Made by a program: the position numbers and the translations under genes. From positions 7,331-71,330 of the forward strand of contig JABHRR010000040.1 in assembly GCA_018670095.1 (NCBI GenBank): 64,000 nt of DNA, given 5' to 3'. Position 1 is the stretch's first letter, and every line of letters starts with the position of its first letter. Source of the DNA: Candidatus Woesearchaeota archaeon (GTDB lineage: Archaea > Nanobdellota > Nanobdellia > Woesearchaeales > GW2011-AR9). The notes under the pieces are model-generated. The model did not search any database, was not told the DNA's origin, and worked only from the letters and a program-made list of their open reading frames with translations. This document shows positions 1-58,291 of the stretch, in pieces.

Positions 1-204
1 ACTTCTGACGCCTATAAAAAGATAAGGTGGAGTGCATCTGATTATTATATGGAAACTGAAATGATTATAAACACTGGTAAACACAAATTAAAATATATAG
101 AAATTCCTATTGAAACTATTTACGCAGATAAATATAAAGGAACAACAGTGCTTGATGGAGTTAAAATTGTTCTTAAAATGCTTACTTGGAGGTTATTAAG
201 ATGA
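1..204 (+). CDS. C-terminal fragment of a GT2 polyprenyl-phosphate sugar synthase-like glycosyltransferase (5' partial)
   Basis: Frame 1 is open from the window edge to TGA at 202-204. The translation ...GKHKLKYIEIPIETIYADKYKGTTVLDGVKIVLKML is typical of the C-terminus of GtrB/DPM1-like GT2 enzymes. Confidence 0.45.
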   Translation, partial: TSDAYKKIRWSASDYYMETEMIINTGKHKLKYIEIPIETIYADKYKGTTVLDGVKIVLKMLTWRLLR

Positions 205-548
205 ATACAACACTTTGGATACAATTATTAGGAATCATTTTTGGGTTAGGAATGATTTACTTTACTTTTGTTAAGTATAAGAGAAAAGAATTAAGGAAAC
301 AGGAATTTTTAATGTGGCAGTTATGTTGGTCAGTATTAATTCTAGTTGCAATTATTCCCTCAATTCTTGATCCAATCATTGCTCCGCTTAACTTTTATCG
401 CCGATTAGATTTCTTTGTAGTGTTTGGGTTTTTTGCTCTCTTGGCACTTGGATTTTATAACTATGGGATTACTAAAAACTTACAAAGAAAATTAGAAAAA
501 TTTGTCAGAAAAGATGCAATTAGAAAAGAGGAAGAAAAAAAAGAATGA
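201..548 (+). CDS. small integral membrane protein (DUF2304-like), often paired with GT2 enzymes
   Basis: ATG at 201 lies 7 nt after GGAGGT. Two or three hydrophobic helices and a K/E-rich tail. The ORF track starts at TTG 186. Confidence 0.5.
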   Translation: MNTTLWIQLLGIIFGLGMIYFTFVKYKRKELRKQEFLMWQLCWSVLILVAIIPSILDPIIAPLNFYRRLDFFVVFGFFALLALGFYNYGITKNLQRKLEKFVRKDAIRKEEEKKE

Positions 549-1696
549 AAATACTTTTTGTCTGTGAGAATTATATCCCTCATTATGGAGGAGCGGAAGT
601 TGTTTTTAAGAATCTCGCAGAAAGTTATGTTAAGTTGGGTCATGAAGTAATTCTGTTAACACAAAAACTAAAAGGAACAAAAAGAAAAGAGATCATTGAT
701 GGAGTAAAAGTTTATCGGGTAAATTCGTTCGGTTCTCGTTATCTGTTTACATTCATTTCATTATTCAAAGCGATTAAGTTTGCTAAAAAAAGTGATGTTA
801 TTCAAACAACTTCTTTTAATGGTGCTCCTCCAGCTTGGTTAGCAGGAAAGATTGCTGGAAAGCCAGTAGTAATAACGGTACACGAAATTTGGATTGGAAA
901 ATGGAATCAAGTTACTAGTTTTCCAAAATGGAAATGTTGGATTCATGAATTACTAGAAAAAGCGATTTATTCCATTAATTATGATAAATATGTTTGTGTT
1001 TCTAATGCCACCAAAAAGGATTTGTTACAAACAGGTATAAAGCCGGAAAAAGCAGTAACTATCCATAATGGTTTAGATTATGAGTTTTGGAACGAAAAAG
1101 ACATTGACAATAATAAAATTAAAAGTATTAAGAAAAATTTAGGTTTAGAAAATAATTTTGTATACTTCTCTTGGGGCAGACCAGGAGAATCGAAAGGTTT
1201 TGAATATGTAATTAAAGCCGTACCAGAAATTTCAAAAAAAATCCCTAATGCGATCCTTGTGCTAACATTTGGTTCCATTGACAAATATCAGAAAAAATAT
1301 AACCAACTAATGAAACTTATTAAAGAATTGAAGATTGAGGATAAAGTTAGATTAATTGATACTGTTCAGCACCAGGATTTACGTTATTACTTGAAAGCGT
1401 TTGATTGTGCAGTTATCCCTTCTATTGCAGAAGGGTTTGGATATAATGCTGTAGAAGCGATTACAATGGGCATTCCGGTAGTTGTGAGTGATGCAGGCTC
1501 ACTTCCAGAAGTAGTTTCTGGAAAACATTTGATGTTTGAAAGTAAGAATCATCTTGATTTGGCTGAAAAAGTGATTCTTGTTTCGCAAGGTAAGTACAAT
1601 AATGAAGAAGTAAGAGAATACAACTGGGAACCAAGTGTTGAAAAATATTTAGAAGTTTATGAGAAATTATGCTCTAAAATGAACCCAAAATCATAA
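545..1696 (+). CDS. glycosyltransferase family 4 (GT-B)
   Basis: E-X7-E motif EGFGYNAVEAITMGIPVV; length and layout of GT4 retaining enzymes. Confidence 0.75.
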   Translation: MKILFVCENYIPHYGGAEVVFKNLAESYVKLGHEVILLTQKLKGTKRKEIIDGVKVYRVNSFGSRYLFTFISLFKAIKFAKKSDVIQTTSFNGAPPAWLAGKIAGKPVVITVHEIWIGKWNQVTSFPKWKCWIHELLEKAIYSINYDKYVCVSNATKKDLLQTGIKPEKAVTIHNGLDYEFWNEKDIDNNKIKSIKKNLGLENNFVYFSWGRPGESKGFEYVIKAVPEISKKIPNAILVLTFGSIDKYQKKYNQLMKLIKELKIEDKVRLIDTVQHQDLRYYLKAFDCAVIPSIAEGFGYNAVEAITMGIPVVVSDAGSLPEVVSGKHLMFESKNHLDLAEKVILVSQGKYNNEEVREYNWEPSVEKYLEVYEKLCSKMNPKS

Positions 1697-1730
1697 ATGT
1701 TATAAAGTAATTTTACTGATTTTTCTTATC

Positions 1731-2984
1731 ATGAGAATCCTTTTTATATCTGAATATTTTACGCCAAAAATTATGGGTGGTGGAGAAATTAATTTATTTC
1801 TGATAGCTAAAGCACTTGTTAAAAATGGAGAAGATGTTTCCGTACTAACTTCTTATCATTCGGGATTAAAAAGAGTTGAGATTATTGAGGGGATCAAAAT
1901 TTATCGCAAGCTGAAGACTGCAGACAACCCAAGCGGGGTTAAAAATAATTGGATTAGGAGCAGATTGTTTCCAAAATCAATTGTTAAAGAAACTAAAAAA
2001 CTTAATAAAAAATTAAAATTTGATTTGATTCATTTTATTGGAACAAGCATCATTGCGGCAAAAGAATTGCGGAAGATTAAAAAATTACGAAGAGTTAATG
2101 TGCCTTTGTTTGCGACCATCGAAAGTTATCCTGCCCTTTGTCCAAAAGGGGACAGATTTTATCATGGAAAAAGAGAATGCAAATATGTTTGTTCGTTCTC
2201 TAAATTTTTATCTTGTCAAATGAATTCTTCTGAAATTGGAAAAACTAAGAATAGTTGGTATTTGAAGTATAATCTTTTGTTTTTGTATTATGTGTATAAT
2301 TATTATAAAAAATTAAATGAGGGATTAAAATATTGTAAGTTAATTGCCATTAGCGAATATGTGCAGAAAATATTATTACAGCAAGGAAGAGAAAGTGTTG
2401 TTATTCCGAATATGTTAGAAGTTAATAAATTTAATGTTAAGATTAATAAGAAAACAAACAAAAGTAAAAAAACAAGAATACTTTATTTGGGATCTTTAAC
2501 CAAATTTAAAGGCCCACAAGTATTATTGAAAGCAATCAAAGGATTGAATAATGTAAGATGTAATTTATATGGAGATGGTCCGTTAAAAGATGAATTACAA
2601 AGATATATCAATAAAAATAACCTTGATGCAGAGATTTATCAACCTGTTTCTTATGATCAAATTCCTGAAGTTTATGCCAATCATGATCTTGTTGTTTTTC
2701 CCTCCATTTGGCCAGAACCATTCGGCAGGATTGCGATTGAAGCAATGGCTGCTGGTAAACCGGTAATTGGTAGTGATGTGGGGGGGATTAGGGAGACTAT
2801 TGAGAAAGGAAAAGGAATACTTGTTAAGGTGGGAGATGTTAAAGAGATTCATAACGCAATTAAAGAGTTAATTATTAATTCAGAATTTAAAAAAGTAATA
2901 AAAGAGAAAAGAGAAATAGAAGAAAAAAAGTATGATGAAAAAGTGGTTATTAAAAAACTGATAACTAGTTACAAGAGATTATAA
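1731..2984 (+). CDS. glycosyltransferase family 4 (GT-B)
   Basis: EPFGRIAIEAMAAGKPVIGSDVGG motif; 417 aa. Confidence 0.75.
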   Translation: MRILFISEYFTPKIMGGGEINLFLIAKALVKNGEDVSVLTSYHSGLKRVEIIEGIKIYRKLKTADNPSGVKNNWIRSRLFPKSIVKETKKLNKKLKFDLIHFIGTSIIAAKELRKIKKLRRVNVPLFATIESYPALCPKGDRFYHGKRECKYVCSFSKFLSCQMNSSEIGKTKNSWYLKYNLLFLYYVYNYYKKLNEGLKYCKLIAISEYVQKILLQQGRESVVIPNMLEVNKFNVKINKKTNKSKKTRILYLGSLTKFKGPQVLLKAIKGLNNVRCNLYGDGPLKDELQRYINKNNLDAEIYQPVSYDQIPEVYANHDLVVFPSIWPEPFGRIAIEAMAAGKPVIGSDVGGIRETIEKGKGILVKVGDVKEIHNAIKELIINSEFKKVIKEKREIEEKKYDEKVVIKKLITSYKRL

Positions 2985-3057
2985 AAAAATAAAAAAAATT
3001 AAGAGTACTCAAGTAAAGGAAAGTTTATATAATCTTATTAAGAGACAAATCATTAAA

Positions 3058-3879
3058 ATGGCTTTAAGAAAATCAGACAAATTAAGAGAATCAATCCTTA
3101 CTCTTCCACCAATTAGTAAAACATATTATTTTTTAGCTTGGTTAATCAGCGATGCCTACATTCTCTCCTATCCTAGAAGTGGTAGAACTTGGTTAAAAGT
3201 AATGCTAAATAAAATGTTATCATTAAAATATAATTTAAAAAAAGACAATATTTATTTATATCGAAAAACATTATTCTCAAAAGCCCCAAATATTGTTAGT
3301 GAACATCCATTCGAGCCAGACTATCCTACTATATATCCATATCCAAAAATGAAAGTGGGAAAAAAGTTTAAAAAGAAAAAAATAATCCTCCTTTTTAGAG
3401 ATCCAAGAGATCTCGTGGTGTCTAATTATCATGAATATACAAAAAGGAAAAAAATCTGGCAAGGAGAATTATCACAATTCATTAAAGAACCGTATACATT
3501 ACCTAGAATTATTAAATTTATGAATTTATGGCATGAAGAAACTAAAAAGAGAAAAGATATCCTAATATTAAAGTACGAGCGAACCAAGGAAGATCCTTTT
3601 GGAGAACTAAAGAAAGTTTCAGAATTCTTAGGGATTAACGCCAGTGACGAAATTTTAAAAGAAGCAGTAGAGTATGGATCAATTGAAAACATGAGAAAAT
3701 TAGAGGTAAAAGACCATTTTAAACACGACAAGTTAAGACCCGCTAACCTTGATGATATTAATAGTTATAAAGTAAGAAAAGCTAAAGCAGGAAGCTATAA
3801 AGAAGAATTAAATGAAGAGGATATTGCTTACATGAATCAACAAATTAGTGAAAGGCTGGTAAAAGAAATAGGATATTAA
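3058..3879 (+). CDS. PAPS-dependent sulfotransferase
   Basis: 5'-PSB motif YPRSGRTWLKV and 3'-PB motif RDPRDLVVS, spaced as in the sulfotransferase family. Confidence 0.7.
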   Translation: MALRKSDKLRESILTLPPISKTYYFLAWLISDAYILSYPRSGRTWLKVMLNKMLSLKYNLKKDNIYLYRKTLFSKAPNIVSEHPFEPDYPTIYPYPKMKVGKKFKKKKIILLFRDPRDLVVSNYHEYTKRKKIWQGELSQFIKEPYTLPRIIKFMNLWHEETKKRKDILILKYERTKEDPFGELKKVSEFLGINASDEILKEAVEYGSIENMRKLEVKDHFKHDKLRPANLDDINSYKVRKAKAGSYKEELNEEDIAYMNQQISERLVKEIGY

Positions 3880-4584
3880 TCAGTTGTATGGAAAGAGTTC
3901 TTCTGCTTTCTTTAAGTCTTCAGGAAAGTCTATATCAACAAATGAAGCACCCTCTATATCACGAGCAGTTATCGTTTCTCCATTTTTAATAAGACTGTCA
4001 ATCACTTCTATTAAAGAGGCATTAAGATTAGTCTTTGCGGTTTGATTAAGTTCAGTAATTAGTTTATCCGCCCCAATACTAGAGAATTTTGCAATGCCAA
4101 TAAATTCTCCGTTTTCTTCAACCGTTCTTACTTTGCTGATATTTGTTATTATTCCATCTTTTACCACAACTTTCTCAGCTTCTTCTCTGACTACAATTCT
4201 TTTCTTTTTAATAGATAAACAAATATCCCATTCACTTTCCAATAAATATGTAATTATTTTTGGATCAAACAAAACATCAGAATAAAGGAATATAAAACTT
4301 TCTTTTAACTCTTTTTGGACGAGCCACAAAGCCAGAGCCATCCCTGAAACTTCATAAAAAGGATTAAATAAAGTTTTGATCCCCAGTTCTTCTTTACATT
4401 TTTCTATTTCTTTTGATAAATGGCCAGTGATTACAATAATATCTTCAATGCCCAATTTCTTTAGGTTCTCAACTTGTCTCTCCAAAATTGTTTTGGATCC
4501 TACTTTTAATAAACATTGAGGGGTGTATTTAGTTAGAGGCAATAGTCTTGTTGCTTTTCTTGTTGCTAAAATAATGACTTTCAT
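3880..4584 (-). CDS. LicC/IspD-like nucleotidyltransferase (CDP-alcohol or CMP-phosphonate forming)
   Basis: N-terminal ILATRKATRLLPLTKYTPQCLLKV matches the GxGTRLxPLT loop. The C-terminal FVDIDFPEDLKKAEELF is typical of the LicC/MobA-like NTP_transf_3 family. Co-oriented directly downstream of phnDCE. Confidence 0.6.
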   Translation of the reverse strand: MKVIILATRKATRLLPLTKYTPQCLLKVGSKTILERQVENLKKLGIEDIIVITGHLSKEIEKCKEELGIKTLFNPFYEVSGMALALWLVQKELKESFIFLYSDVLFDPKIITYLLESEWDICLSIKKKRIVVREEAEKVVVKDGIITNISKVRTVEENGEFIGIAKFSSIGADKLITELNQTAKTNLNASLIEVIDSLIKNGETITARDIEGASFVDIDFPEDLKKAEELFPYN

Positions 4585-4676
4585 TTGTTTTGTCCCTAAG
4601 AGTACATATTATATATTTTGTATACTTATTAATTTCTTATATTTCTTAAATCTTTAGGAGTATATTTGCAATTTTA

Positions 4677-5528
4677 TTACAGATCTACTTTTACTATTCT
4701 TTTTCTAATATAAGCGCTGAATCTATCTATGGTCGTAACCATAACAATCATAATAATCAAAATAGTTAAAACTTCTTGATTTTTAAAAAGCCTCATACTT
4801 GTTAATAATTCCATCCCAATACCCCCCGCCCCAACTAAACCTAAAACTGTTGCGGCCCTAAAATTATTTTCAAGGTAGTAAAGTGTATAATTAACAAATA
4901 AAGGTTTAACTTGAGGAAAAATCCCCCTAACAATAACCTGAATTTTGTTTGCCCCTGTTGAAACAACCGCTTTAATCACTTCTTGATCAACAGTTTCTAT
5001 TGCCTCAGAAAAATATCTTCCTAAAGCACCAGTAACATGGGCAGATAACGCTAAAACTCCTGGAAAAGGTCCTAAGCCCACCATAGAAACGAAGATAAGA
5101 CCCCAGATTATTTCGTTTATCCCTCTAAGGCCATCAAATATTGTTCTAACAAAATGGTAAACTAATTTATTGGGCATAATGTTTCTTGCAGCCAGAAAAG
5201 ATAACGGTAAAGCGATCATCGCCCCAATAGTAGACCCAACTATGGCCATTTGTAAAGTTTCAACAGCTTTTTTTAAAAATAAGCTCAAATGGGTTATATC
5301 GGGAGGGAACATTCTTTTAACAAAATCTATCATGAAAGGAATACCTTTAACAAAACCAGTAGGGCTAGTCTGAGTGCCAGCCAGAGCCCAATAATAGATA
5401 ATGGCAACTAATAAACCGATTATTAATCCTTTATATTTCCAAGGAAGTTTAGAGGAAAGTTCAGAGGAAAGTCTGGGCGGAAGTTTAGAGGAAAGTTCAG
5501 ATGAAGATTTAGATTTTGGTATTGTCAT
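4677..5528 (-). CDS. phnE: phosphonate-type ABC transporter permease
   Basis: EAA-like loop EAIETVDQEVIKAVVSTGANKIQVIVRGIFPQV, about 6 TM helices, located next to phnC and phnD. The N-terminal tail holds a tandem peptide repeat. Confidence 0.75.
   Translation of the reverse strand: MTIPKSKSSSELSSKLPPRLSSELSSKLPWKYKGLIIGLLVAIIYYWALAGTQTSPTGFVKGIPFMIDFVKRMFPPDITHLSLFLKKAVETLQMAIVGSTIGAMIALPLSFLAARNIMPNKLVYHFVRTIFDGLRGINEIIWGLIFVSMVGLGPFPGVLALSAHVTGALGRYFSEAIETVDQEVIKAVVSTGANKIQVIVRGIFPQVKPLFVNYTLYYLENNFRAATVLGLVGAGGIGMELLTSMRLFKNQEVLTILIIMIVMVTTIDRFSAYIRKRIVKVDL
5459..5517. repeat. 23-nt perfect direct repeat (ggaagtttagaggaaagttcaga) present twice with a 13-nt spacer, inside the 5' end of phnE
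   Basis: Read directly from the sequence. It encodes the duplicated peptide LSSELSSKLP in the PhnE N-terminal tail. Confidence 0.8.
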
Positions 5529-5530
5529 CT

Positions 5531-6304
5531 TTAAAAACCCGTTTTACCATAAAGGTACCATTCTTTTGTTTTACCATATATTTCTACAATATCTTTTTCG
5601 GTAAGGTCTTCAGATTTTCCGTCAAAGACAATTTTTCCGTTTCTCATTCCAATAATTCTAGCACCATATCTCTTAGCAAAATCAAGAAAATGTAAGCTAG
5701 CAATAAAAGTAATTCCACTTTCAGTACAAATGGTTTGCAACAAATCCATAATTTCTTTCATCAACTTGGGGTCTAAATTAGAAACGGGTTCGTCAGCAAG
5801 AATAATATCTGGTTTTTGGCATAAAGTCCGGGCGATAGCAACTCTTTGTTTTTGCCCCCCACTAAGATTCAGAACTGTTTCATTCTCATAACCTTGTAAT
5901 CCAACTTTTTCAAGGTTTTCTTGTGCCAAAGTATAATCTTCTTTAGAAAATTTTCCAAGTATTGTTTTAAAAGAACTATTAAAACGTAATCTACCATTTA
6001 AAACATTTTTCAAAACGGTCTCATTTTCAGTGAGATTAAAGTTCTGAAAAATCATCCCAATCTTCCCTCTTATTTTTCCTGCCTTTTTTATCGGACCATT
6101 TAAAATATTATCATTTCCAATAAATATATCTCCAGAGCTGGGTTCTATTAAACGATTAATACACTTTAATAATGTTGATTTTCCTGAACCACTAGATCCA
6201 ATAATGACTGCACTTTCATTTTTCTTAAAATGAAGACTAATATCTTTTAGAGCATCTTCGTTTCTATTATTATACCTGTGAACAAGTTTTTCTATTCTAA
6301 TCAT
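5531..6304 (-). CDS. phnC: phosphonate-type ABC transporter ATP-binding protein
   Basis: Walker A GSSGSGKST, Q-loop IGMIFQ, signature LSGGQKQRVAIAR, Walker B IILADEP. Confidence 0.85.
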   Translation of the reverse strand: MIRIEKLVHRYNNRNEDALKDISLHFKKNESAVIIGSSGSGKSTLLKCINRLIEPSSGDIFIGNDNILNGPIKKAGKIRGKIGMIFQNFNLTENETVLKNVLNGRLRFNSSFKTILGKFSKEDYTLAQENLEKVGLQGYENETVLNLSGGQKQRVAIARTLCQKPDIILADEPVSNLDPKLMKEIMDLLQTICTESGITFIASLHFLDFAKRYGARIIGMRNGKIVFDGKSEDLTEKDIVEIYGKTKEWYLYGKTGF

Positions 6305-6365
6305 TTTAATATTCTCAATATTTAAATTAATGGAAAAAATGGATAATAAAAAATAATAAAAAATC

Positions 6366-7280
6366 TTATTTATTAGCTGCCTCTGGATTAGTAACGTCCA
6401 TTCCTAAAATTTTAGCTGTTTCTCTAATTACGTCATAGTCACTGTCATATACTCTTTTATAACGAGAAATCCCGCCCCAGCCATCAACTTTATGGATGGT
6501 TTGTTGATCCATTTTAACTAACGCCAACTGGATTTTTAATTTAATGAGTTTAGGAAGATCTCCTCTAACAGCAATTGGCGAACCGGGAATAGGATCAGAG
6601 GTATAGATAATCTTGTTTACTTGTGGGTCTATTTCTCCTTCTTTTACCATCCTCTTGTATACATTATCACCAGTTGCTCCTGCATCTACTTTGCCATTTG
6701 CAACAGCATACATAACCGCATTATGAGTCCCAGCATAATAACTCGTACTAAAATCGCTATCTGGATCAATTCCGTTCTCAATTAATATTTTTCGAGGAAT
6801 AAGATTTCCAGAGGTAGAAGCAGGATCTACAAAAGCAAAGGATTTCCCTTTTAAATCTGCCAAAGTATTAATTCCGCTATCGACGTTAGTGACAATTACA
6901 GATTTATAAGTTGAACTTCCAGTTTCATCTTTTACGCCATTAACAATTGCTTCTGCCCCAGCAACATTTGCTGCGATAACATATGAAAACGGACCAAACC
7001 AAGCCATATCAATATGTTTATATCGCATTGCTTCAATAGCAGCAGTATAATCAGAAGTCACTTGAATCTCAACAGGAATCCCTAATTCTTTGGATAAGTA
7101 TTCTTTAATGGGTTCATAATTTCTAAGCATTTCATCAGCATCATCAGCAGGAATTAAACCCATTTTCAAAACTTTAATATCGGAAATTGCTCCTCCAGTT
7201 GGGCTTTGAACACCATTACAACCAGCCAGAAATATAACTAAACACAACAACAAACTTAATATTATTTTTTTCATTTTCAT
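6366..7280 (-). CDS. phnD: phosphonate/phosphite-type ABC substrate-binding lipoprotein
   Basis: Signal peptide with lipobox LAGC. The PhnD-like periplasmic binding fold comes first in the phnD-C-E gene order. Confidence 0.7.
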   Translation of the reverse strand: MKMKKIILSLLLCLVIFLAGCNGVQSPTGGAISDIKVLKMGLIPADDADEMLRNYEPIKEYLSKELGIPVEIQVTSDYTAAIEAMRYKHIDMAWFGPFSYVIAANVAGAEAIVNGVKDETGSSTYKSVIVTNVDSGINTLADLKGKSFAFVDPASTSGNLIPRKILIENGIDPDSDFSTSYYAGTHNAVMYAVANGKVDAGATGDNVYKRMVKEGEIDPQVNKIIYTSDPIPGSPIAVRGDLPKLIKLKIQLALVKMDQQTIHKVDGWGGISRYKRVYDSDYDVIRETAKILGMDVTNPEAANK

Positions 7281-7510: not shown

Positions 7511-10306
7511 ATGGTAAAGATAATTACAACAATAGGGACTAGTTCCATTAAACCAGGAGTATTACATAAACTTAAATCTCATCATGTTGATTTTGTCAGA
7601 ATTAATCTCTCTCATACTAAAGAAAAAGATATTGAAAAAAATATTGAACAGTTAAAAAATTCTAAACTGCCAATCATTATTGATACTGAAGGATCAAAAA
7701 TTAGAACGGGACAATTGAAAGAAGATGTTACCATTCTTGTTAAAGATAAAATTATAAAAGTTTTTAAAGGAGAGATTCCAAATGATTGTGAGGATAATAC
7801 TATCGCAATTAAACCAAAAGAAATTTTGGATTATGTTCGCCCTGGAAATTTGATATCTGTTGATTTTGATTCTGTATTACTAAAAGTAACGGATACTTCC
7901 GCATTAAAAGAAGGTGATTATATTACCTGTCAAGTAATTATTGGAGGCCTAGTTGGAAGCAATAAGTCCGTTCATATTGAAGATTTAAAAATTAAATTGC
8001 CACCTTTTAGCCAAAAAGACTTTTTAGCAATTGAACTTGCCAAAAAACACAAAGTAAAGTTTTTCACATTATCTTTTATTGACCATGGTAGGGAAGTTAA
8101 AGCATTCAAAGAGATATACCCTGAATCATTTGTGTACGCAGAAATCGAAACAAGAGCAGGAATCATAAATTTTGAAAGTATTATTAAAGAAAGTGATGGA
8201 ATTATGGTTGATCGAGGCGATCTCAGTAAAGAAATTTCTCTAGAAAAAATACCCTTAGCACAAAAAATAATTATTAAGAGATGTAATCAAGAAAATAAGG
8301 AGGTATTAATTGCTACTAATATTCTTGAAAGTATGTGTAATTCTCTTAAACCAACCAGAGCAGAAGTAAATGATGTTATCAACACGATTCTAGACGGAGC
8401 TACGGGATTAGTGTTAACAAAAGAAACCGCCATTGGAAACTATCCGTTGGAGACAATAAATATGCTCCATAACCTTATTCAACACGCCAGTTTTGCATTA
8501 AATTCAACAAAAATCAATGAAGCACTTACAGAAAAGAAAGCAAGTAAAACGTTGTTAGAATTAGATTATATCACAAACCCTTACATCACAGATTCATTAA
8601 ATCCTCCTCATGGGGGCAGGTTAGTAAATCAGGTAATGGATGAAAGTGAAATTAAAAAGTACGATTTGCTCACAATGAAAAAATTGGAAGTAAATGAAAC
8701 TACATTAATAGATGCTGAACAAATAGCTATTGGGACTTATAGTCCTTTAGAAGGGTTTATGGTAAAAGAAGATTTCGTCTCCGTTTTAAATAATATGAGA
8801 CTAAAGAACGGCGTCATTTGGCCAGTCCCAATATATTTACAAATAAAAGAGAAAGTGGTGGCAGATTTTTTTCCGAAAGAAAATATCTTATTAATATCAA
8901 AAAAAGATAAGGAAGCGTATGCAATTCTTCATTTAAAAGAGATATACCCACTAAATTTACAAGAGACAGCACTTAAACTTTTTGGAACCACGGACGAAGA
9001 ACATCCCGGGGTGAAAAATTTATTTACACAAGGCAATTTTTTTTTAGGGGGGAAAATAAGTTTAATTAAAAAGTTACCTTCCTCACATAAACACCATGAA
9101 TTAACGCCAAAACAAACCAGAAAGATATTTCAAGAGAAAGGCTGGAAAAGAATTGTTGGTTTTCTTTCTCACAATGCAATCCATCGATCTCATGAGATAA
9201 TCCAATTAGAAGGCATAGAAATGGGTGAATGTGATGGTTTATTTGTCCATCCAATGGTGGGAAAGAAAAAAGAAGGTGACTTTAGAACCGAGATTGTTAT
9301 TAAGAGTTATGAGCTAATGATGGAAAAGTTTTATCCACAAAATGTCATCTTTAGTACGTTTTTGATATACTCTCGCTGGTGCGGTCCCCGAGAAGCAGTT
9401 TTTAGTGCAATATGTAAGAAAAACTTTGGTTGCAGTCATTTTATTGTGGGTAGAGACCACGCTGGAGTTGGTGGCTTCTATGGCCCAAAAGAAGCCCATA
9501 ACATATTTAATAAATTTCCTAATTTGGGGATTGAACCTGTTTGTTTTAATGACATTTTTTATTCAAAAAAAGAAGGAAAGCACATTGAAGATAATCCAGA
9601 AAACAATAAAGAAAACCAAAAAGAGGAAAACAAATCCACAATAAGTGGAACCATTGTAAGAAAAATGTTAAAATCTGGTCAACAACCACCAGCATGGTTA
9701 ATGCGGCCCGAAATTTCTGAAATGATTATCAATTGCATTAATCAAGGAGAAGAAGTATTTTACGAAGAAGATCAGAAAAAGTGTAAAGTCCTCTGGTTTA
9801 CTGGGTTATCTGGATCTGGAAAGACAACTCTAGCTTTAGAACTTAAAAAAAAACTTGAAGAGTTAGGAAAAAAAGTAGAAATTCTTGATGGAGATATTGT
9901 TAGAGGTACGATAAACAAGCACCTAGGTTTTTCAAGAGAAGATATTAGAGAAAATAATAAAATAATGGCAGGATTAGCAAAAGAAAAAATGAAAGATTCT
10001 GATTTTGTTCTTGTTCCAAAAATATCCCCTTACAAAGAAGACAGGGAAAAAACGCAATTTCTTATTGGCGATAACTTCCTGGAATTATTTATTAATGCCC
10101 CCCTACAAGAATGCATAAAAAGAGATGTAAAAGGCCTATATCAAAAAGCCCTTGCTGGAGAAATCAAAGATTTTGTGGGGATTGCCCAATCTAATCCTTA
10201 CGAAGCCCCTGATAATCCCCATTTAGAAATAAAAACTGATCAACAGTCTTTAGAAGAAAGTGTAACAACTATATTAGATTTTTTAAAAAGCCGTCAATTA
10301 TTTTAA
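7511..10306 (+). CDS. tri-domain protein: pyruvate-kinase-like domain + sulfate adenylyltransferase (ATP sulfurylase) + adenylylsulfate kinase
   Basis: Residues 1-330 match the PK barrel (INLSHTKEKD, IIIDTEGSKIRTG, MVDRGDLSKEISLEKIPLAQK, PTRAEVNDVINTILDGATGLVLTKETAIG). The middle region has the HRSHE and GRDHAG motifs of ATP sulfurylase. The C-terminus has GLSGSGKTT, LDGDIVRG and KISPY of APS kinase (CysC). Confidence 0.8.
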   Translation: MVKIITTIGTSSIKPGVLHKLKSHHVDFVRINLSHTKEKDIEKNIEQLKNSKLPIIIDTEGSKIRTGQLKEDVTILVKDKIIKVFKGEIPNDCEDNTIAIKPKEILDYVRPGNLISVDFDSVLLKVTDTSALKEGDYITCQVIIGGLVGSNKSVHIEDLKIKLPPFSQKDFLAIELAKKHKVKFFTLSFIDHGREVKAFKEIYPESFVYAEIETRAGIINFESIIKESDGIMVDRGDLSKEISLEKIPLAQKIIIKRCNQENKEVLIATNILESMCNSLKPTRAEVNDVINTILDGATGLVLTKETAIGNYPLETINMLHNLIQHASFALNSTKINEALTEKKASKTLLELDYITNPYITDSLNPPHGGRLVNQVMDESEIKKYDLLTMKKLEVNETTLIDAEQIAIGTYSPLEGFMVKEDFVSVLNNMRLKNGVIWPVPIYLQIKEKVVADFFPKENILLISKKDKEAYAILHLKEIYPLNLQETALKLFGTTDEEHPGVKNLFTQGNFFLGGKISLIKKLPSSHKHHELTPKQTRKIFQEKGWKRIVGFLSHNAIHRSHEIIQLEGIEMGECDGLFVHPMVGKKKEGDFRTEIVIKSYELMMEKFYPQNVIFSTFLIYSRWCGPREAVFSAICKKNFGCSHFIVGRDHAGVGGFYGPKEAHNIFNKFPNLGIEPVCFNDIFYSKKEGKHIEDNPENNKENQKEENKSTISGTIVRKMLKSGQQPPAWLMRPEISEMIINCINQGEEVFYEEDQKKCKVLWFTGLSGSGKTTLALELKKKLEELGKKVEILDGDIVRGTINKHLGFSREDIRENNKIMAGLAKEKMKDSDFVLVPKISPYKEDREKTQFLIGDNFLELFINAPLQECIKRDVKGLYQKALAGEIKDFVGIAQSNPYEAPDNPHLEIKTDQQSLEESVTTILDFLKSRQLF

Positions 10307-10322: not shown

Positions 10323-11015
10323 ATGGATGATATCAACAAAGAAAAATACCAAAAGAATGGAATTATTGGTGTCTTAACTAGAAAGTTCATTTCAACCAAA
10401 ATTAGTTCTCTTTTAGCTAAAACTCGATTAACTCCAAATCAAATAACATTATTTTCATTAATTATTGGATTAATTGGAATTTATTTCTTGTCTACAGGAG
10501 AACGAACAAATTTAATTGTAGCTGGAATATTAATCTTCTTCTCAAAGATATTTGATGCGGTTGATGGGGAGTTAGCAAGACTTAAAAGAATGGAAACTCC
10601 TCGCGGAGCTTGGATTGACGGAATTTCTGATCGCTTTAAAGAAAATTTAATTTTCTTGGGGGTTGCAATTGCCCTCTATAGACAAACAGGAGATGTTTAT
10701 GTCTGGCTTTATGCTTTCATTGCTGTAATTTCGATACATATGTTATCCATAGTACTAGAACACACAGGAATGATGGATAAAAACGCATTAAAGAATACGC
10801 AAGAAGATTTTTGGATGGTAAGATTTGCGAAAAAGATAGGCATTCGTCCACAATTCCTTGCTTTGCAAGCCGACACTTATTTGTTTATTATTTACGTTAG
10901 TATAATCCTCAACCAATTAATGTTTATTCTCTGGTTTTTTATGGTTGTGATGAATTTATATTGGATAGTAATAGTTATTCTAGTATTTATTAAAAAAGGT
11001 GAAGAAGAAAAATGA
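10323..11015 (+). CDS. CDP-alcohol phosphatidyltransferase family membrane protein
   Basis: Motif DAVDGELARLKRMETPRGAWIDGISDRF fits D-G-x2-A-R-x8-G-x3-D-x3-D. Several TM helices. Its stop overlaps the start of the next gene. Confidence 0.75.
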   Translation: MDDINKEKYQKNGIIGVLTRKFISTKISSLLAKTRLTPNQITLFSLIIGLIGIYFLSTGERTNLIVAGILIFFSKIFDAVDGELARLKRMETPRGAWIDGISDRFKENLIFLGVAIALYRQTGDVYVWLYAFIAVISIHMLSIVLEHTGMMDKNALKNTQEDFWMVRFAKKIGIRPQFLALQADTYLFIIYVSIILNQLMFILWFFMVVMNLYWIVIVILVFIKKGEEEK

Positions 11016-12037
11016 AAATCTATTTTGATGCGGATGTTGAAGAAAGAAAATATGAAGGAAGATCACAAACTTCAATCTTAATGAAAAAGTTTTTAGAAAG
11101 TAAAGGGTTCACTTTCGTAGACCATCCTCGCAAAGCAGATTTAATTCAGTTTCATAGTAGTGGGATATTTGCTTCATTTAGAGCTGCAAAATGGAAAAAA
11201 AAGTACAAAGTGCCTGTAATTTATACGCTATATTCTCTTTCTAAAACAGAGCCATTTAATCACATTAGAAATCATTTTGCACAAAGATATTATTTAAGAA
11301 AACGTAAAACTAGTTTTTTATTGAGTTATTCAGCGATATTACCACTTAAATGGAGAGGATATAATTTAAAAAAGTTAGATTTAATAATTACCCCTTCAAT
11401 TTTTGTTAAAAAAAGATTGTTTGAAAATACGAAACTAATCAGAATTGGAATTGATACAAAAAAATTTAGACCATTGAAAATTAATAAACAAAAAGATGAA
11501 AAAATGAGAGTGGGATATTTTGGCCATCCCAGTGCTTACAAGGGAGTGTTAGATTTTGCTCGAGCTTCAAAGAAATTCTCAAAAGATTATCAAAGTTATA
11601 TCTTCATCTCAGACACTTCTAAGAAAATGTTAAGAAATCTAAAAGAAATTAATCCAAAACTAAATATTTATGGACACACAAAAAATATTACCAAAGCTTA
11701 TAATGACATGGACATTATCGTTTTACCATACAGAAGCCATTTAGCTGGCGTGGCCAACCCTTTAGTTTTAATTGAAGCAATGGCTTGTGGTAAAGCTATT
11801 GTGACAACGAATTTTTCTTATCTTAAAGAAATTGTTAAAGATTCCGCCTTATTAATTAAACCATATTCGCCAAAATCTATTGTCAAAGCGGTTAAAAAAT
11901 TAAAGAATGAAAAGTTAAGAGAATTATTAGGAAAGAAAGCAAAGGAAATTATCGAAAAAGAATATGGTCAAGAGAAAATGTTTAATGAGTATCTGAAAGT
12001 TTATCGGTTCTTTGAGAATAAAATGAATAAAAATTAA
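11012..12037 (+). CDS. glycosyltransferase family 4-like (GT-B)
   Basis: C-terminal ANPLVLIEAMACGKAIVTT; ATGA overlap with the upstream gene. Confidence 0.6.
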   Translation: MKIYFDADVEERKYEGRSQTSILMKKFLESKGFTFVDHPRKADLIQFHSSGIFASFRAAKWKKKYKVPVIYTLYSLSKTEPFNHIRNHFAQRYYLRKRKTSFLLSYSAILPLKWRGYNLKKLDLIITPSIFVKKRLFENTKLIRIGIDTKKFRPLKINKQKDEKMRVGYFGHPSAYKGVLDFARASKKFSKDYQSYIFISDTSKKMLRNLKEINPKLNIYGHTKNITKAYNDMDIIVLPYRSHLAGVANPLVLIEAMACGKAIVTTNFSYLKEIVKDSALLIKPYSPKSIVKAVKKLKNEKLRELLGKKAKEIIEKEYGQEKMFNEYLKVYRFFENKMNKN

Positions 12038-17396: not shown

Positions 17397-17506
17397 TAGT
17401 TTTCACCTTTTCTTTTATTTAATTCACTTAAACTTTCATTAAGACAACTAACCACTTTTTTTATCTTTCTATCTTTATGGGCTAATAAATCATTTGAAAT
17501 GGCCAT

Positions 17507-19123: not shown

Positions 19124-19184
19124 CTTTTTTATTAAAATTATTTTTTAATTTTTTTCTAAATTGTTTTTCAAGTTACTTAAATAT

Positions 19185-19979: not shown

Positions 19980-19990
19980 TTAAAATACCT

Positions 19991-22039: not shown

Positions 22040-22213
22040 ATTTGAAACCCGTTATTATAAAAAATTATTATCTATTCACAAAATGTGGTTTAAAAATGTT
22101 ACTAAACTGTAAACTATGTTACACCTAAAGTATAGGGGATGTTTCTTTTTAATAAACTATATAAATGAACGATAAACTATTAAGTAAGAATAAAAATTTA
22201 TAAACTAAAGTAA

Positions 22214-24615: not shown

Positions 24616-24655
24616 ATATCCAAATAAGGTATTAAGAAGATAAATAATCAGAAAA

Positions 24656-27946: not shown

Positions 27947-28003
27947 TGAAAAGTTTAAAAAAATGCTACTTATATATCTTACTAAATTATGTTCAATAAA
28001 TGA

Positions 28004-28981: not shown

Positions 28982-29013
28982 TTTTAATAAAAATATAAAT
29001 TAAACTAAATTAA

Positions 29014-30105: not shown

Positions 30106-30211
30106 TTTAATTACAAACTAAAATAAAGCTTATAAACTTTATGAAGGCCATTTTTGTATCTAAATATATATTTCCTAACATTTATAAATAGAATTTAACC
30201 TAAAAGAAAAG

Positions 30212-30748: not shown

Positions 30749-30793
30749 CTCCATTTCAATAAGTTTAAATACAAATGATTAAAATTCATTATT

Positions 30794-35122: not shown

Positions 35123-36607
35123 TTATTTTCTAACTAACTTGGAGTAATATTTTATTTCATCTAAATTTAGTAAACCAAAAGTGTAAGCTAAAAATAAATA
35201 AACTAATCCGGCAATAATCAAACCAACAATCATTTCAAACCAAATATTAAAGCTAAAAAAACTTTTTATTATAGCTAAAGTGATTAAAAACCCGAATGTA
35301 GGAAAAATTAATGTAACCCATTCTTTTAAAGGTAATTTAAGGGTTACCTGTTTCTTAGTCTGATAAGTGGATAATAATAACATCATTAAATAACTTAAGG
35401 TCGTAGATATCGCAGCACCATTAATGCTTAACAAAGGGATCAAAATTATATTTAAGACTACGTTCAATGAAGCAGTAGACAAAATAATTGCCATCACTAT
35501 TTTTGGTTTTCCAATACCTGAAATAAAATTATTATTTACTGAGGCTAAAACATAAAAAGAAACACCAATTAAAAGAATCTTAAATGCGGTGACCCCAGAA
35601 ACATATTCTAATCCAAACAATTTTACAATCAGAACATCTGTATAAACATAAATGATTAAGAAAAAAGGGATTATAGTTACAAAAGTATACTTATATAACA
35701 ATGTTAAACCTTTACTTAGCTTTGTTTGATCCTTTTTTGCCCATAATTCTGAGGATAAAGGAAAAAGTACTGCAGAGATGGCTTTACTAAAAAATAAAAA
35801 GATTAAAGCTGATGGTAAAATGGCATTATAAACTCCTACTTCTGACAAAGTTCCAAAATAAGTTAAGATTATTGTGTCTATATAACCAATAAGTTTCCCC
35901 CCAATTGAGGTTGCGAATACTGGTATTCCAAACAAAAAAAGTTTTTTGGATATTTTCTTTAAATGTACTACTTTATAACTAAAAAAATTAAATTTTCTAA
36001 ACAAAAAAGGAGCATAAATCAGAAAAAGAAGAGGACAAACTAAAGCATAGGCATATACGGGTGCAAAACTTTTTTGACCAAAATAAAAGAATATTAAAAT
36101 TAAAACCAAAACAATTAGATTTTTCATTAACTCCATAGAGGAGAAAAAAAACATTTCTTGAAAACCCTGAAATATTTGTTTGACAATTATAAAAAAAACA
36201 CTAAAGATAACATAAAAGACTAATATTCTTAAAATTAAAGATGCTTGTGGATTTTTAAAATAATATTGTGCCAAAAAACTTGAAGAAAAAATAAATATAA
36301 GAACAAAAATTATTGAACTAAATAATTGAATTGAGAAAACAGAAACAATTGCTGTTTTTATCTCATTAAACTGATTATTTACTTTAAACTCTGCCATATA
36401 CTTAACTAACGCCTGGCCTAATCCTAAGTCTCTAAAAAAAAGGAATAAAATAATAAAAGTGAAAACTGAATAAAATAATCCATATTCTTCAACAGAAAGA
36501 TTTCTTGCTAAAACTAAACGAGTAACATAAGCAACAACTGCAGCAAGAATGCTCATGATTAAAGTTATTCCTGCACCTCTAACGGCTCTCTTAGTATAAT
36601 TAACCAT
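35123..36607 (-). CDS. wzx: Wzx-type oligosaccharide flippase (polysaccharide biosynthesis protein, PST family)
   Basis: 494 aa, 12-14 TM, with a Wzx-like N-terminus. Confidence 0.65.
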   Translation of the reverse strand: MVNYTKRAVRGAGITLIMSILAAVVAYVTRLVLARNLSVEEYGLFYSVFTFIILFLFFRDLGLGQALVKYMAEFKVNNQFNEIKTAIVSVFSIQLFSSIIFVLIFIFSSSFLAQYYFKNPQASLILRILVFYVIFSVFFIIVKQIFQGFQEMFFFSSMELMKNLIVLVLILIFFYFGQKSFAPVYAYALVCPLLFLIYAPFLFRKFNFFSYKVVHLKKISKKLFLFGIPVFATSIGGKLIGYIDTIILTYFGTLSEVGVYNAILPSALIFLFFSKAISAVLFPLSSELWAKKDQTKLSKGLTLLYKYTFVTIIPFFLIIYVYTDVLIVKLFGLEYVSGVTAFKILLIGVSFYVLASVNNNFISGIGKPKIVMAIILSTASLNVVLNIILIPLLSINGAAISTTLSYLMMLLLSTYQTKKQVTLKLPLKEWVTLIFPTFGFLITLAIIKSFFSFNIWFEMIVGLIIAGLVYLFLAYTFGLLNLDEIKYYSKLVRK

Positions 36608-58122: not shown

Positions 58123-58291
58123 TTTTTATTTCTGATATTAAAACTTGCTTTAATTAAAGTAAAATTAAAAGGGGGTTTTTATACTTTACTAAACCAAAAT
58201 TAAGTTAAGTAAATAAAAATAATTAGATTTAGAACATAAAGCCAAAAGATATAAAAAGAGAGGTAACTGTTTAAAAAAACAATAAAACAAA

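What the first reader, a model, noticed from the sequence alone, without database searches (positions are those of the whole stretch)
3058..3879. PAPS-dependent sulfotransferase embedded in the glycosyltransferase cluster, implying a sulfated surface glycan
The ORF has clear 5'-PSB (YPRSGRTWL) and 3'-PB (RDPRDLVVS) motifs. It sits next to two GT4 genes, and the PAPS synthase described above is 3.6 kb downstream. That co-localisation argues that the glycan made by this island is sulfated, and sulfated glycans are uncommon in AT-rich prokaryotic lineages.
Basis: partly seen in the sequence, partly recalled or inferred. Interest (0 to 1): 0.55.

Follow-up and report, generated by a model that had tools for sequence, protein, structure and literature searches.

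The report
Glycan sulfotransferase in a DPANN archaeon
The gene is a genuine, intact PAPS-using sulfotransferase in a large surface-sugar gene island of a tiny DPANN archaeon, so this organism probably coats itself with sulfated sugars using a different enzyme type from the only archaeal glycan sulfotransferases studied so far.

Summary
Observation confirmed. ORF 3058..3879 (+, 273 aa) exists, both motifs are where stated, two GT4 genes lie directly upstream, and a PAPS synthase starts 3.6 kb downstream.

Interpretation supported. Pfam Sulfotransfer_1 scores 100.5 bits (cutoff 22). A confident AlphaFold model matches PAP/PAPS-bound SULT structures. The 5'-PSB, 3'-PB and C-terminal KxR/G motifs and H83 are invariant in 26 homologs. 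The 5'-PSB Lys is Arg (R40), as in tyrosylprotein sulfotransferases. dN/dS is about 0.05.

The source is a DPANN archaeon (80% identity to a Nanoarchaeia MAG). The window begins inside the GT2 gene that follows AglB/STT3 in the orthologous loci. That points to a cytoplasmic enzyme sulfating a lipid-linked glycan, most likely the N-glycan.

The link to PAPS supply recurs in diverged DPANN loci. One has APS kinase and the sulfotransferase in a single reading frame. Others add a CysQ-type PAP phosphatase. Bacterial homologs sit in polysaccharide clusters.

The acceptor is inferred, not shown. Known archaeal N-glycan sulfotransferases (Agl30/31) have a sulfatase fold, so this is a new member of a known kind.

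Side observations: a swappable phosphonate cassette, and a PK-like–PAPS synthase fusion widespread in DPANN and CPR.

The parts
1..201 (+). 3' end (last 67 codons) of a GT2 glycosyltransferase gene cut by the window edge. In orthologous loci this gene directly follows AglB/STT3.
   Evidence: tblastn: 75% identity to residues 151-217 of the L001 GT2. L001, L006 and L010 have STT3-GT2-DUF2304 in this order.
186..548 (+). DUF2304 small membrane protein
   Evidence: Pfam DUF2304 74.7 bits. Syntenic in L001, L006, L010 and L011.
545..1696 (+). GT4 glycosyltransferase a
   Evidence: Glyco_transf_4 95 bits + Glycos_transf_1 98 bits. Orthologs 55-72% identical in L001, L006, L010 and L011.
1731..2984 (+). 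GT4 glycosyltransferase b
   Evidence: Glycos_transf_1 122 bits. Orthologs in L001-L004, L006 and L010.
3058..3879 (+). PAPS-dependent sulfotransferase (the finding). 5'-PSB at nt 3169-3195 (R40 in the Lys position). Candidate catalytic base E82-H83, with H83 at nt 3304-3306. 3'-PB at nt 3397-3423 (R114, S122). Y173-E174. KVRKAKAG at nt 3769-3792 (K238, R240, G245).
3880..4584 (-). LicC/PntC-like cytidylyltransferase, convergent with and abutting the sulfotransferase stop codon. Part of a variable phosphonate/phospho-alcohol activation cassette.
   Evidence: Pfam NTP_transferase. PDB 1jyk LicC 1.6e-20 and 6pd1 3e-11.
4677..7280 (-). PhnE (4677-5528), PhnC (5531-6304) and PhnD (6366-7280)-type ABC importer
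   Evidence: BPD_transp_1, ABC_tran and Phosphonate-bd at 252.7 bits. TIGR03431 PhnD 265.1 bits against a cutoff of 261.1.
7511..10306 (+). PAPS synthase: PK-like barrel (aa 2-316) + PUA_2 + ATP sulfurylase + APS kinase. It supplies the sulfate donor.
10323..11015 (+). CDP-alcohol phosphotransferase family membrane protein. Conserved next to the PAPS synthase in L001 and L010, and present in L011, which has no PAPS synthase.
   Evidence: Pfam CDP-OH_P_transf 55.7 bits. Synteny.
11012..12037 (+). GT4-like glycosyltransferase c
   Evidence: Glycos_transf_1 66.5 bits. Syntenic in L001, L010 and L011.
35123..36607 (-). Wzx/MOP-type flippase, a candidate translocase for the lipid-linked glycan. A second copy lies at 55833-57317.
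   Evidence: Polysacc_synt 112 bits. Second copy 80 bits.

Best explanation
ORF 3058..3879 encodes a soluble, cytoplasmic, PAPS-dependent O-sulfotransferase of the Sulfotransfer_1 (SULT-like) fold in a DPANN (Nanoarchaeia-like) archaeon.

Proposed mechanism, by analogy with solved SULTs and TPSTs:
- PAPS binds through the 5'-PSB loop (S37-W45, with R40 in the place of the SULT Lys), the 3'-PB element (R114, S122) and the C-terminal K238/R240/G245 motif.
- H83, possibly with E82, deprotonates a sugar hydroxyl.
- That hydroxyl attacks the sulfuryl group in line, releasing PAP.

The donor comes from the dedicated PAPS synthase at 7511..10306.

The acceptor is a glycan assembled by the co-directional upstream genes GT2-DUF2304-GT4-GT4. 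It is most likely still lipid-linked at the cytoplasmic membrane face. It would then be flipped by a Wzx-type flippase and attached to surface proteins by AglB, whose gene lies just off the window's 5' edge by synteny.

Shown here: family membership, intact motifs, fold, purifying selection, and conserved linkage to PAPS synthesis and to glycan genes.
Inferred: that the acceptor is a glycan (about 0.75), that it is the N-linked glycan (about 0.45), and the exact sugar and position (unknown).
For: Family and fold:
- Pfam 100.5 bits.
- AlphaFold pLDDT 88.8, pTM 0.86.
- The top 50 listed Foldseek PDB hits are almost all PAP/PAPS-bound sulfotransferases (plus retinol dehydratase 1x8j of the same fold), TM 0.54-0.68.
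- Profile search against PDB hits plant and animal SULTs at 1e-25 to 1e-14.

Catalytic set:
- S37, G42, R43, T44, W45, H83, R114, D118, S122, Y173, E174, K238 and R240 are invariant in 26 homologs of 31-90% identity.
- H83 lies at the end of strand 79-82.
- Arg at the 5'-PSB is catalytic in TPSTs.

Functional gene: dN/dS 0.05-0.065 against three orthologs.
Cytoplasmic: no TM segment, max KD19 1.04.

Donor linkage:
- PK/ATPS/APSK lie within about 6 kb of the sulfotransferase in L001, L005, L006, L008, L009 and L010, but almost never in the roughly 70 bacterial loci.
- L010 has APSK and the sulfotransferase in one open frame.
- L005 has PK-ATPS, APSK, the sulfotransferase and CysQ in a row.
- L009 has GT4, the sulfotransferase, PK-ATPS, an APSK-CysQ fusion and a second sulfotransferase.

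Glycan linkage:
- STT3/AglB-GT2-DUF2304-GT4-GT4-sulfotransferase in L001, L006 and L010.
- The window starts inside that GT2.
- The rest of the window is a glycan island with NeuB, DegT, Wzx, GDP-Man dehydratases and PMT_2 proteins.
- Homologs lie in polysaccharide clusters of Halomonas ventosae, S. meliloti pSymB and others. That is 9 of 10 independent context types.

Precedent: haloarchaeal N-glycans are sulfated at the dolichyl-phosphate stage.
Against: - There is no biochemical evidence on the acceptor.
- The closest solved structures sulfate small hydrophobic molecules or glycopeptide aglycones, not sugars.
- No solved carbohydrate sulfotransferase was recovered as a near relative.
- AglB itself is not in the window. 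One syntenic locus (L011) shows no AglB within 6 kb.
- The island also carries PMT_2-type GT-C enzymes and two Wzx flippases, so more than one glycoconjugate may be made.
- In this window the sulfotransferase and the PAPS synthase are separated by a convergent cassette and are not co-transcribed.
- No PAP phosphatase and no sulfate transporter were found in the window.
- Three archaeal homologs (L010, L011, L018) lack His at the H83 column, so its catalytic role is not universal in the family.
Confidence: 0.75

Rival explanations
1. The enzyme sulfates a surface glycoconjugate other than the AglB-dependent N-glycan. Candidates are an O-linked glycan (PMT_2-type GT-C enzymes), a Wzx/Wzy-type polysaccharide, or a glycolipid or lipoglycan. 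This is still a sulfated glycan and therefore a sub-case of the main explanation, with a different pathway and carrier.
For: The island encodes two PMT_2 proteins, two Wzx-type flippases, GtrA+GT2 and several more GTs. Bacterial homologs sit in Wzy/Wza/Wzc-type EPS clusters. L011 shows the synteny block without a nearby AglB. A CDP-alcohol phosphotransferase, typical of lipid head-group chemistry, is conserved in the core cluster.
Against: The immediate gene block GT2-DUF2304-GT4-GT4-sulfotransferase is adjacent to AglB in three of four syntenic loci, spanning 43-80% sulfotransferase identity. Archaeal N-glycan genes are typically aglB-anchored.
Confidence: 0.3
2. The acceptor is not a sugar. 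It could be a small metabolite, a lipid or isoprenoid alcohol, or the hydroxyl of a phosphonate such as 2-hydroxyethylphosphonate made or imported by the adjacent cassette. On this reading the glycan neighbourhood is coincidental.
For: The nearest solved relatives are small-molecule SULTs and the glycopeptide-antibiotic enzymes StaL/Teg. The gene abuts a phosphonate import/activation cassette. In L092 (Methylomarinovum) the homolog has no GT neighbours.
Against: Nine of ten independent neighbourhood types carry GT or polysaccharide genes. The phosphonate cassette is absent in L010 and L005 while the sulfotransferase/PAPS/GT linkage persists. The gene is co-directional with the GT genes, separated by gaps of 34 and 73 nt.
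Confidence: 0.1
3. The protein is catalytically dead or repurposed because the 5'-PSB Lys is replaced by Arg, and the PAPS synthase serves sulfur assimilation rather than sulfation.
For: R40 replaces the canonical Lys in the query's subclade. No CysQ was found in the window.
Against: All other PAPS-binding residues are invariant. Arg is the functional residue at this position in TPSTs. dN/dS is about 0.05. No PAPS reductase was found in the ORFs of 120 aa or more scanned across the window. The APSK-sulfotransferase and APSK-CysQ fusions in relatives tie the PAPS supply to sulfotransfer.
Confidence: 0.03

Closest known systems
Cytosolic SULT-type sulfotransferases (Pfam PF00685), e.g. human SULT1E1 (PDB 1g3m), SULT2A1 (1efh) and Arabidopsis SOTs (1q44, 5mek)
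   Same: Same fold (Foldseek prob 1.00, TM up to 0.68). Same 5'-PSB, 3'-PB and C-terminal RKG-type PAPS-binding motifs. A His at the end of the strand preceding the variable loop. Soluble protein of similar size.
   Different: About 20-23% identity. Arg instead of Lys in the 5'-PSB. A loop about 9 residues longer after the His. An N-terminal two-helix extension. Those enzymes sulfate small molecules, whereas this one is embedded in a glycan-assembly operon of an archaeon.
Uncharacterised bacterial Sulfotransfer_1 homologs in polysaccharide clusters (Halomonas ventosae P0062; Sinorhizobium meliloti pSymB; cyanobacterial, Planctomycetota and Chloroflexota MAG proteins)
   Same: Same subfamily: 30-40% identity over about 85-90% of the length, with all invariant residues shared. 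Same kind of neighbourhood: GT4, Wzy, Wza/Wzc, PIG-L and other sulfotransferases.
   Different: They carry Lys at the 5'-PSB. They have no adjacent PAPS synthase. They sit in bacterial Wzx/Wzy EPS or O-antigen-type pathways rather than an AglB-linked archaeal cluster. To my knowledge none has a demonstrated acceptor.
Halobacterium salinarum Agl30 (VNG1056C) and Agl31 (VNG1057C), the only experimentally identified archaeal N-glycan sulfotransferases (Zaretsky et al. 2025, PMC11980604)
   Same: Proposed biological role: sulfation of sugars of a dolichyl-phosphate-linked N-glycan. Gene located in an aglB-anchored cluster. One of them (Agl31) is soluble and cytosolic.
   Different: Agl30/31 belong to the alkaline-phosphatase/sulfatase-like superfamily. 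The present protein has the canonical PAPS-binding SULT fold and no Sulfatase domain. The two are unrelated in sequence and fold. The present cluster also brings its own PAPS synthase.
Tyrosylprotein sulfotransferases (TPST1/2, tick TPST)
   Same: PAPS-dependent enzymes with Arg, not Lys, in the 5'-PSB contacting the 5'-phosphosulfate (PMC10951654).
   Different: TPSTs use Glu as the base and act on protein tyrosines in the Golgi. They belong to a different Pfam family and did not appear among the sequence hits.
Glycopeptide-antibiotic sulfotransferases StaL, Teg12 and Teg14
   Same: Prokaryotic members of the same fold, detectable by sequence (1.5e-15 to 4e-17 with the family profile).
   Different: They act on glycopeptide aglycones within secondary-metabolite clusters. 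No such cluster is present here.

Membership tests
Sulfotransfer_1 (PF00685) PAPS-dependent sulfotransferases | Profile HMM score above the curated gathering threshold over the full domain | tested here: met
   100.5 bits against a cutoff of 22; protein residues 32-266 match profile positions 3-250 of 255.
Sulfotransfer_1 (PF00685) PAPS-dependent sulfotransferases | 5'-phosphosulfate-binding strand-loop-helix motif (P-K/R-S-G-T/R-T-W) | tested here: met
   Y-P-R-S-G-R-T-W at aa 38-45. S37, G42, R43, T44 and W45 are invariant in 26 homologs. Position 40 is R in the subclade and K elsewhere. In the model: strand 33-37, loop, helix 43-58.
Sulfotransfer_1 (PF00685) PAPS-dependent sulfotransferases | 3'-phosphate-binding motif (R-x(7)-S on a strand-helix) | tested here: met
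   R114-D-P-R-D-L-V-V-S122. R114, D118 and S122 are invariant. Strand 108-113 followed by helix 116-130.
Sulfotransfer_1 (PF00685) PAPS-dependent sulfotransferases | Catalytic base (His in SULTs) at the end of the strand after the 5'-PSB helix region | tested here: met
   H83 is invariant in alignment A1 and lies at the end of strand 79-82. phmmer and hmmsearch place the gap differently in this variable loop, so structural equivalence rests on motif and topology rather than on a superposition. Three other archaeal homologs lack the His.
Sulfotransfer_1 (PF00685) PAPS-dependent sulfotransferases | SULT alpha/beta fold | tested here: met
   AlphaFold pLDDT 88.8. 94 PDB matches at E<=1e-3; the 50 listed are sulfotransferases except retinol dehydratase (1x8j), a member of the same fold.
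Sulfotransfer_1 (PF00685) PAPS-dependent sulfotransferases | PAPS-dependent sulfuryl transfer activity | not testable with these tools
   Needs an enzyme assay. Indirect support comes from conserved linkage and fusion with PAPS-synthesis and PAP-phosphatase genes.
Archaeal N-glycosylation (Agl) pathway component | Gene located in an aglB-anchored cluster with glycosyltransferases | tested here: inconclusive
   Met in orthologous loci L001, L006 and L010. In the window itself AglB is not present because the window starts inside the GT2 gene that follows AglB in the relatives.
Archaeal N-glycosylation (Agl) pathway component | Modifies the dolichyl-phosphate-linked or Asn-linked glycan | not testable with these tools
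   Requires MS of lipid-linked oligosaccharides or glycopeptides, or genetics.
Agl30/Agl31-type (sulfatase/alkaline-phosphatase fold) archaeal sulfotransferases | Alkaline-phosphatase-like core / Sulfatase domain | tested here: not met
   No Sulfatase or Phosphodiest domain in this ORF, or in any of the ORFs of 120 aa or more scanned across the window. Family definition taken from PMC11980604.
NCBIfam named sulfotransferase families | Hit to any curated NCBIfam model | tested here: not met
   0 families at E<=0.01. The protein falls outside all curated prokaryotic equivalogs.

The most novel reading that the evidence does not exclude
DPANN archaea and CPR bacteria share a portable 'sulfation module'. 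It is built around a PK-like-PUA-ATP sulfurylase-APS kinase fusion, which in places is further joined to a sulfotransferase or a PAP phosphatase. The module plugs into surface-glycan clusters and pairs with interchangeable sulfotransferase types (Sulfotransfer_1, Sulfotransfer_2, sulfatase-fold). In this organism it would yield an AglB-dependent N-glycan carrying both sulfate and a cytidylyl-activated phosphonate or phospho-alcohol. That strongly anionic surface coat could matter for attachment of these episymbionts to their hosts. The sulfotransferase would be the first canonical PAPS-type 'Agl' sulfotransferase.
Probability: 0.3. Interest if true: 0.7.

Novelty: new member of a known kind. 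Interest (0 to 1): 0.45.

Why it matters
Sulfated protein-linked glycans in archaea are documented only for haloarchaea, where the enzymes found in 2025 have a sulfatase-like fold. This locus predicts that a very different archaeal lineage (DPANN, with tiny genomes and mostly host-dependent lifestyles) spends scarce coding capacity on a complete, dedicated sulfation route using the classical PAPS-type enzyme.

If confirmed, it would give a second, mechanistically distinct solution for archaeal glycan sulfation. It would also point to highly anionic surface glycans as a feature of ultrasmall symbiotic prokaryotes. And it would provide a compact gene set (GT2-GT4-GT4-sulfotransferase plus PAPS synthase) for engineering sulfated glycans in microbes.

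As it stands, it is a well-supported annotation-level inference rather than a surprise to specialists in sulfotransferases.

Tried and rejected
- NCBIfam scan of the sulfotransferase gave no hit, so no curated equivalog exists.
- tRNA and Rfam scans of the window, run to identify the organism, found nothing. Taxonomy came from the genome-collection scan instead.
- I tried to fix the catalytic His by sequence alignment to solved SULTs. phmmer aligned query 'PTI' with SULT 'PTH', and the profile search placed the gap differently again. I rejected those local alignments in favour of invariance plus strand topology. No coordinates were available for a true superposition.
- I looked for a link to the cyanobacterial synechan sulfotransferases through the plasmid collection. 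No Synechocystis hit appeared, only Sinorhizobium, Embleya and Rhizobium.
- I searched the window for AglB/STT3 and CysQ, and by Pfam for a PAPS reductase, a sulfatase-fold protein and a sulfate permease. All were absent.
- An archaeal TATA-like TTTATATA lies 27 nt upstream of the start codon (3024-3031). The motif count in the window equals chance (13 against 13.9 expected), so it is not evidence of a separate promoter.
- Literature searches for a pyruvate kinase-PAPS synthase fusion and for CPR/DPANN sulfation found nothing on topic. This is absence in the searchable library only.
- I considered that the PhnCDE-like importer might carry sulfate for the PAPS synthase. I rejected this as the favoured reading because the same slot in the ortholog L001 holds phosphonate biosynthesis genes, and PhnD passes its equivalog cutoff.
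Full report
**1. The observation**

The ORF 3058..3879 (+) is present exactly as described: ATG to TAA, 273 aa. The two motifs lie at aa 38-46 (YPRSGRTWL, nt 3169-3195) and aa 114-122 (RDPRDLVVS, nt 3397-3423).

Pfam gives Sulfotransfer_1 at E=1.3e-28, 100.5 bits against a cutoff of 22, covering almost the whole profile. It also gives Sulfotransfer_3 at 40.4 bits. The two genes directly upstream on the same strand are GT4 glycosyltransferases, separated by gaps of 34 and 73 nt.

The 931-aa ORF 7511..10306, which starts 3.6 kb after the sulfotransferase stop, contains full-length PUA_2, ATP-sulfurylase and APS-kinase domains. It also has an unexpected N-terminal pyruvate-kinase barrel.

**2. 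Is it an intact sulfotransferase?**

I aligned 26 homologs spanning 31-90% identity. The invariant positions are:
- S37, G42, R43, T44, W45 (5'-PSB);
- H83;
- R114, D118, S122 (3'-PB);
- W158, Y173, E174;
- K238 and R240 of the C-terminal KVRKxKxG motif.

The SULT catalytic Lys position (aa 40) is Arg in the query and its nearest relatives, and Lys in the wider family. Arg at this position is the working residue in tyrosylprotein sulfotransferases, where it contacts the 5'-phosphate that carries the sulfate (PMC10951654).

Pairwise and profile alignments to solved SULTs place gaps inconsistently in the variable loop after the 5'-PSB helix. The only invariant His is H83. It sits at the end of strand 79-82 in the model, in a 'P-N-I-V-S-E-H' context. 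From my own knowledge, not a tool result, this resembles the SULT 'P-R-I-V-K-T-H' strand that carries the catalytic His.

The AlphaFold model is confident (pLDDT 88.8, pTM 0.86). The top 50 listed Foldseek PDB matches are almost all PAP/PAPS-bound sulfotransferases, plus retinol dehydratase (1x8j) of the same fold.

The gene is under strong purifying selection: dN/dS is 0.05-0.065 against three orthologs, with dS saturated. It has no TM segment.

One caution: three other archaeal homologs (L010, L011, L018) have D-P or Q at the H83 column. The base may therefore vary within the family.

**3. Source organism**

The best genome match is a Candidatus Nanoarchaeia MAG at 80% identity. The next archaeal matches are Woesearchaeota, Aenigmatarchaeota and Micrarchaeota MAGs. 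Nanoarchaeia belong to Nanobdellota, that is DPANN. GC content is about 30% across the window.

**4. Linkage to the donor pathway**

I ran tblastn with the window's proteins against 84 fetched loci. PK, ATPS and APSK lie within about 6 kb of the sulfotransferase in six DPANN loci: L001, L005, L006, L008, L009 and L010. Their sulfotransferases are 42-80% identical to the query. The linkage is almost absent from the roughly 70 bacterial loci.

Three loci are especially telling:
- **L010.** APS kinase and the sulfotransferase share one open reading frame (Pfam APS_kinase 127 bits + Sulfotransfer_1 105 bits).
- **L005.** The order is PK-PUA-ATPS, APSK, sulfotransferase, Inositol_P (CysQ-type).
- **L009.** The order is GT2, Wzx, GT4, sulfotransferase, PK-PUA-ATPS, two HAD genes, an APSK-CysQ fusion, then a second sulfotransferase.

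Gene fusion and repeated neighbourhood across this divergence are strong evidence that the enzyme draws on locally made PAPS. The ORFs of 120 aa or more scanned across the window contain no PAPS reductase, so an assimilatory role for the synthase is not indicated.

**5. Linkage to glycan assembly**

In L001 (79% ortholog) the order is STT3/AglB-rotamase, GT2, DUF2304, GT4, GT4, sulfotransferase. L006 has the same AglB and GT2. L010 has STT3 (137 bits), GT2, DUF2304, GT4, GT4 and APSK-sulfotransferase.

The first 201 nt of the window encode the last 67 residues of that GT2 at 75% identity. The window therefore begins one gene downstream of where AglB lies in the relatives. No AglB homolog exists inside the window.

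The rest of the window is a glycan island of 50 kb or more. It contains:
- PseB-like dehydratase, DegT aminotransferases, NeuB and a CMP-sugar synthetase fusion;
- GDP-mannose dehydratases and a C-methyltransferase;
- GtrA+GT2 and further GT2/GT4 genes;
- two Wzx-type flippases and two PMT_2 GT-C proteins.

More distant homologs lie in comparable settings:
- the Halomonas ventosae EPS-type cluster, with Wzy, Bac_transf, GT4s, Sulfotransfer_2, Wza and Wzc;
- an S. meliloti pSymB polysaccharide cluster;
- GT2-GT4-sulfotransferase-LPG_synthase_TM modules;
- a multi-sulfotransferase/ATPS/APSK cluster;
- a GT4/PglD cluster.

Only the Methylomarinovum context lacks GTs.

**6. Mechanism proposed**

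The enzyme is soluble and cytoplasmic. It would bind PAPS through the conserved motifs and transfer the sulfuryl group to a sugar hydroxyl, with H83 (and possibly E82) as base. Because PAPS is cytoplasmic, sulfation must precede flipping. This fits the haloarchaeal precedent of sulfated dolichyl-phosphate oligosaccharides.

My estimates are:
- about 0.9 that it is an active PAPS-dependent sulfotransferase;
- about 0.75 that the acceptor is a glycan made by this island;
- about 0.45 that it is specifically the AglB-dependent N-glycan.

**7. Comparison with what is known**

It is a member of Sulfotransfer_1 by every computable criterion. Functionally it resembles the Hbt. salinarum Agl30/Agl31 enzymes, but those have a sulfatase/alkaline-phosphatase fold (PMC11980604). 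It is not a member of that family.

A 2024 review lists sulfated archaeal N-glycans only from haloarchaea and mentions DPANN only as a taxon (PMC11407970). My searches found nothing on DPANN or CPR sulfation.

The finding is therefore a new member of a known enzyme kind in a new biological setting. Lineage, not base composition, is what makes the case notable.

**8. Things outside the finding**

(a) **Phosphonate cassette.** Between the sulfotransferase and the PAPS synthase lies a convergent cassette: a LicC/PntC-like cytidylyltransferase (PDB 1jyk 1.6e-20, 6pd1 3e-11) and a PhnCDE-type importer. In L001 the same slot holds phosphonate biosynthesis genes: a CTP-transferase-PEP mutase fusion, a TPP decarboxylase, Fe-ADH, HIT and a radical SAM enzyme. 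In L010 the slot is empty. A CDP-alcohol phosphotransferase gene follows the PAPS synthase directly in the window and in L001, and lies beside it in L010. This suggests an exchangeable phosphonate or phospho-alcohol decoration step.

(b) **PK-PAPS synthase fusion.** All 120 listed 90%-identity clusters carry the PK-PUA-ATPS core, and about three quarters also carry APS kinase. They come from DPANN and many CPR/Patescibacteria lineages and are annotated only as 'sulfate adenylyltransferase' or 'pyruvate kinase'. In a CPR genome the fusion neighbours a Sulfotransfer_2 gene in a Wzy/GT cluster. In another Woesearchaeote it neighbours sulfatase/phosphodiesterase-fold proteins, GT4s and Wzx.

(c) **PK catalytic Lys.** It is retained in 116 of 121 family members but is Glu (E211) in the window's protein and its three closest relatives.

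(d) **L010 in-frame stop.** L010 has an in-frame TGA between ATPS and APSK-sulfotransferase, with no start codon before the APSK P-loop.

Noticed in passing
window 3880-7280 (- strand); compare L001 10913-16795 and L010: A LicC/PntC-like cytidylyltransferase plus a PhnE/C/D-type ABC importer sits between the sulfotransferase and the PAPS synthase. In the 79% orthologous cluster (L001) the same slot holds phosphonate biosynthesis genes: a CTP_transf-PEP mutase fusion, a TPP decarboxylase, Fe-ADH, HIT and a radical SAM enzyme. In L010 the slot is empty. It looks like an exchangeable import-versus-synthesis phosphonate activation cassette feeding the conserved CDP-alcohol phosphotransferase at 10323-11015.
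   Followed up: partly
window 7511-10306: The PAPS synthase carries an N-terminal pyruvate-kinase barrel with no PK C-terminal domain. All 120 listed protein clusters from DPANN archaea and CPR/Patescibacteria share the PK-PUA-ATPS core, about three quarters of them with APS kinase as well, annotated only as 'sulfate adenylyltransferase' or 'pyruvate kinase'. I found no paper on it. It may couple ATP regeneration or ADP removal to PAPS synthesis.
   Followed up: partly
window 7511-10306, codon 211 (nt 8141-8143): The PK signature Lys (aligned to K of 'pKIEn' in PDB 7z4r) is Glu in this protein and its three closest relatives, but Lys in 116 of 121 fusion homologs. The whole fusion family also has DTEGSQIR and LIDRGDLS in place of what I recall as the canonical DTKGPEIR and MVARGDLG. 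The PK-like domain may be inactive or altered in this lineage.
   Followed up: partly
L010 7121-10831: PK-PUA-ATPS, an in-frame TGA (9368-9370), then APSK-sulfotransferase all lie in one frame, with no start codon before the APS kinase P-loop. This could be a five-domain polypeptide with readthrough or recoding, a sequencing error, or a pseudogene.
   Followed up: partly
L009 15924-17246 and 17494-18363: A Woesearchaeota scaffold encodes an APS kinase-CysQ (Inositol_P) fusion and a second Sulfotransfer_1 paralog next to the sulfotransferase/PK-ATPS pair. The window itself has no CysQ homolog.
   Followed up: yes
L094 (Woesearchaeota) 1497-7008: Here the PK-PAPS synthase is flanked by sulfatase/SGSH_C and phosphodiesterase-fold proteins plus GT4s and Wzx. 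That is the fold class of the haloarchaeal Agl30/31 sulfotransferases, which suggests the donor module pairs with different sulfotransferase types.
   Followed up: no
window 16362-31939: A nonulosonic-acid (pseudaminic/legionaminic-type) gene set: a PseB-like dehydratase, an acetyltransferase-DegT fusion, a CTP_transf_3-aminotransferase III fusion, a second DegT, NeuB, a hexapeptide acetyltransferase and a GT4.
   Followed up: no
window 57385-61578: A separate inositol-phosphate set: a second CDP-alcohol phosphotransferase, an NTP transferase, a PfkB kinase and myo-inositol-1-phosphate synthase. It resembles a split IPCT/DIPPS or an archaetidylinositol route.
   Followed up: no
window 12071-13510 and 33692-35041: Two paralogous proteins combine an NTP_transf_5-like N-terminus with a P-loop/thymidylate-kinase-like C-terminus. 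The first is syntenic with the sulfation cluster in L010 and L011. Function unknown.
   Followed up: no
L001 2650-6039: The AglB/STT3 of the orthologous cluster is fused to a C-terminal rotamase (parvulin-type PPIase) domain, 1129 aa in total. L010's STT3 (974 aa) shows no rotamase hit.
   Followed up: no
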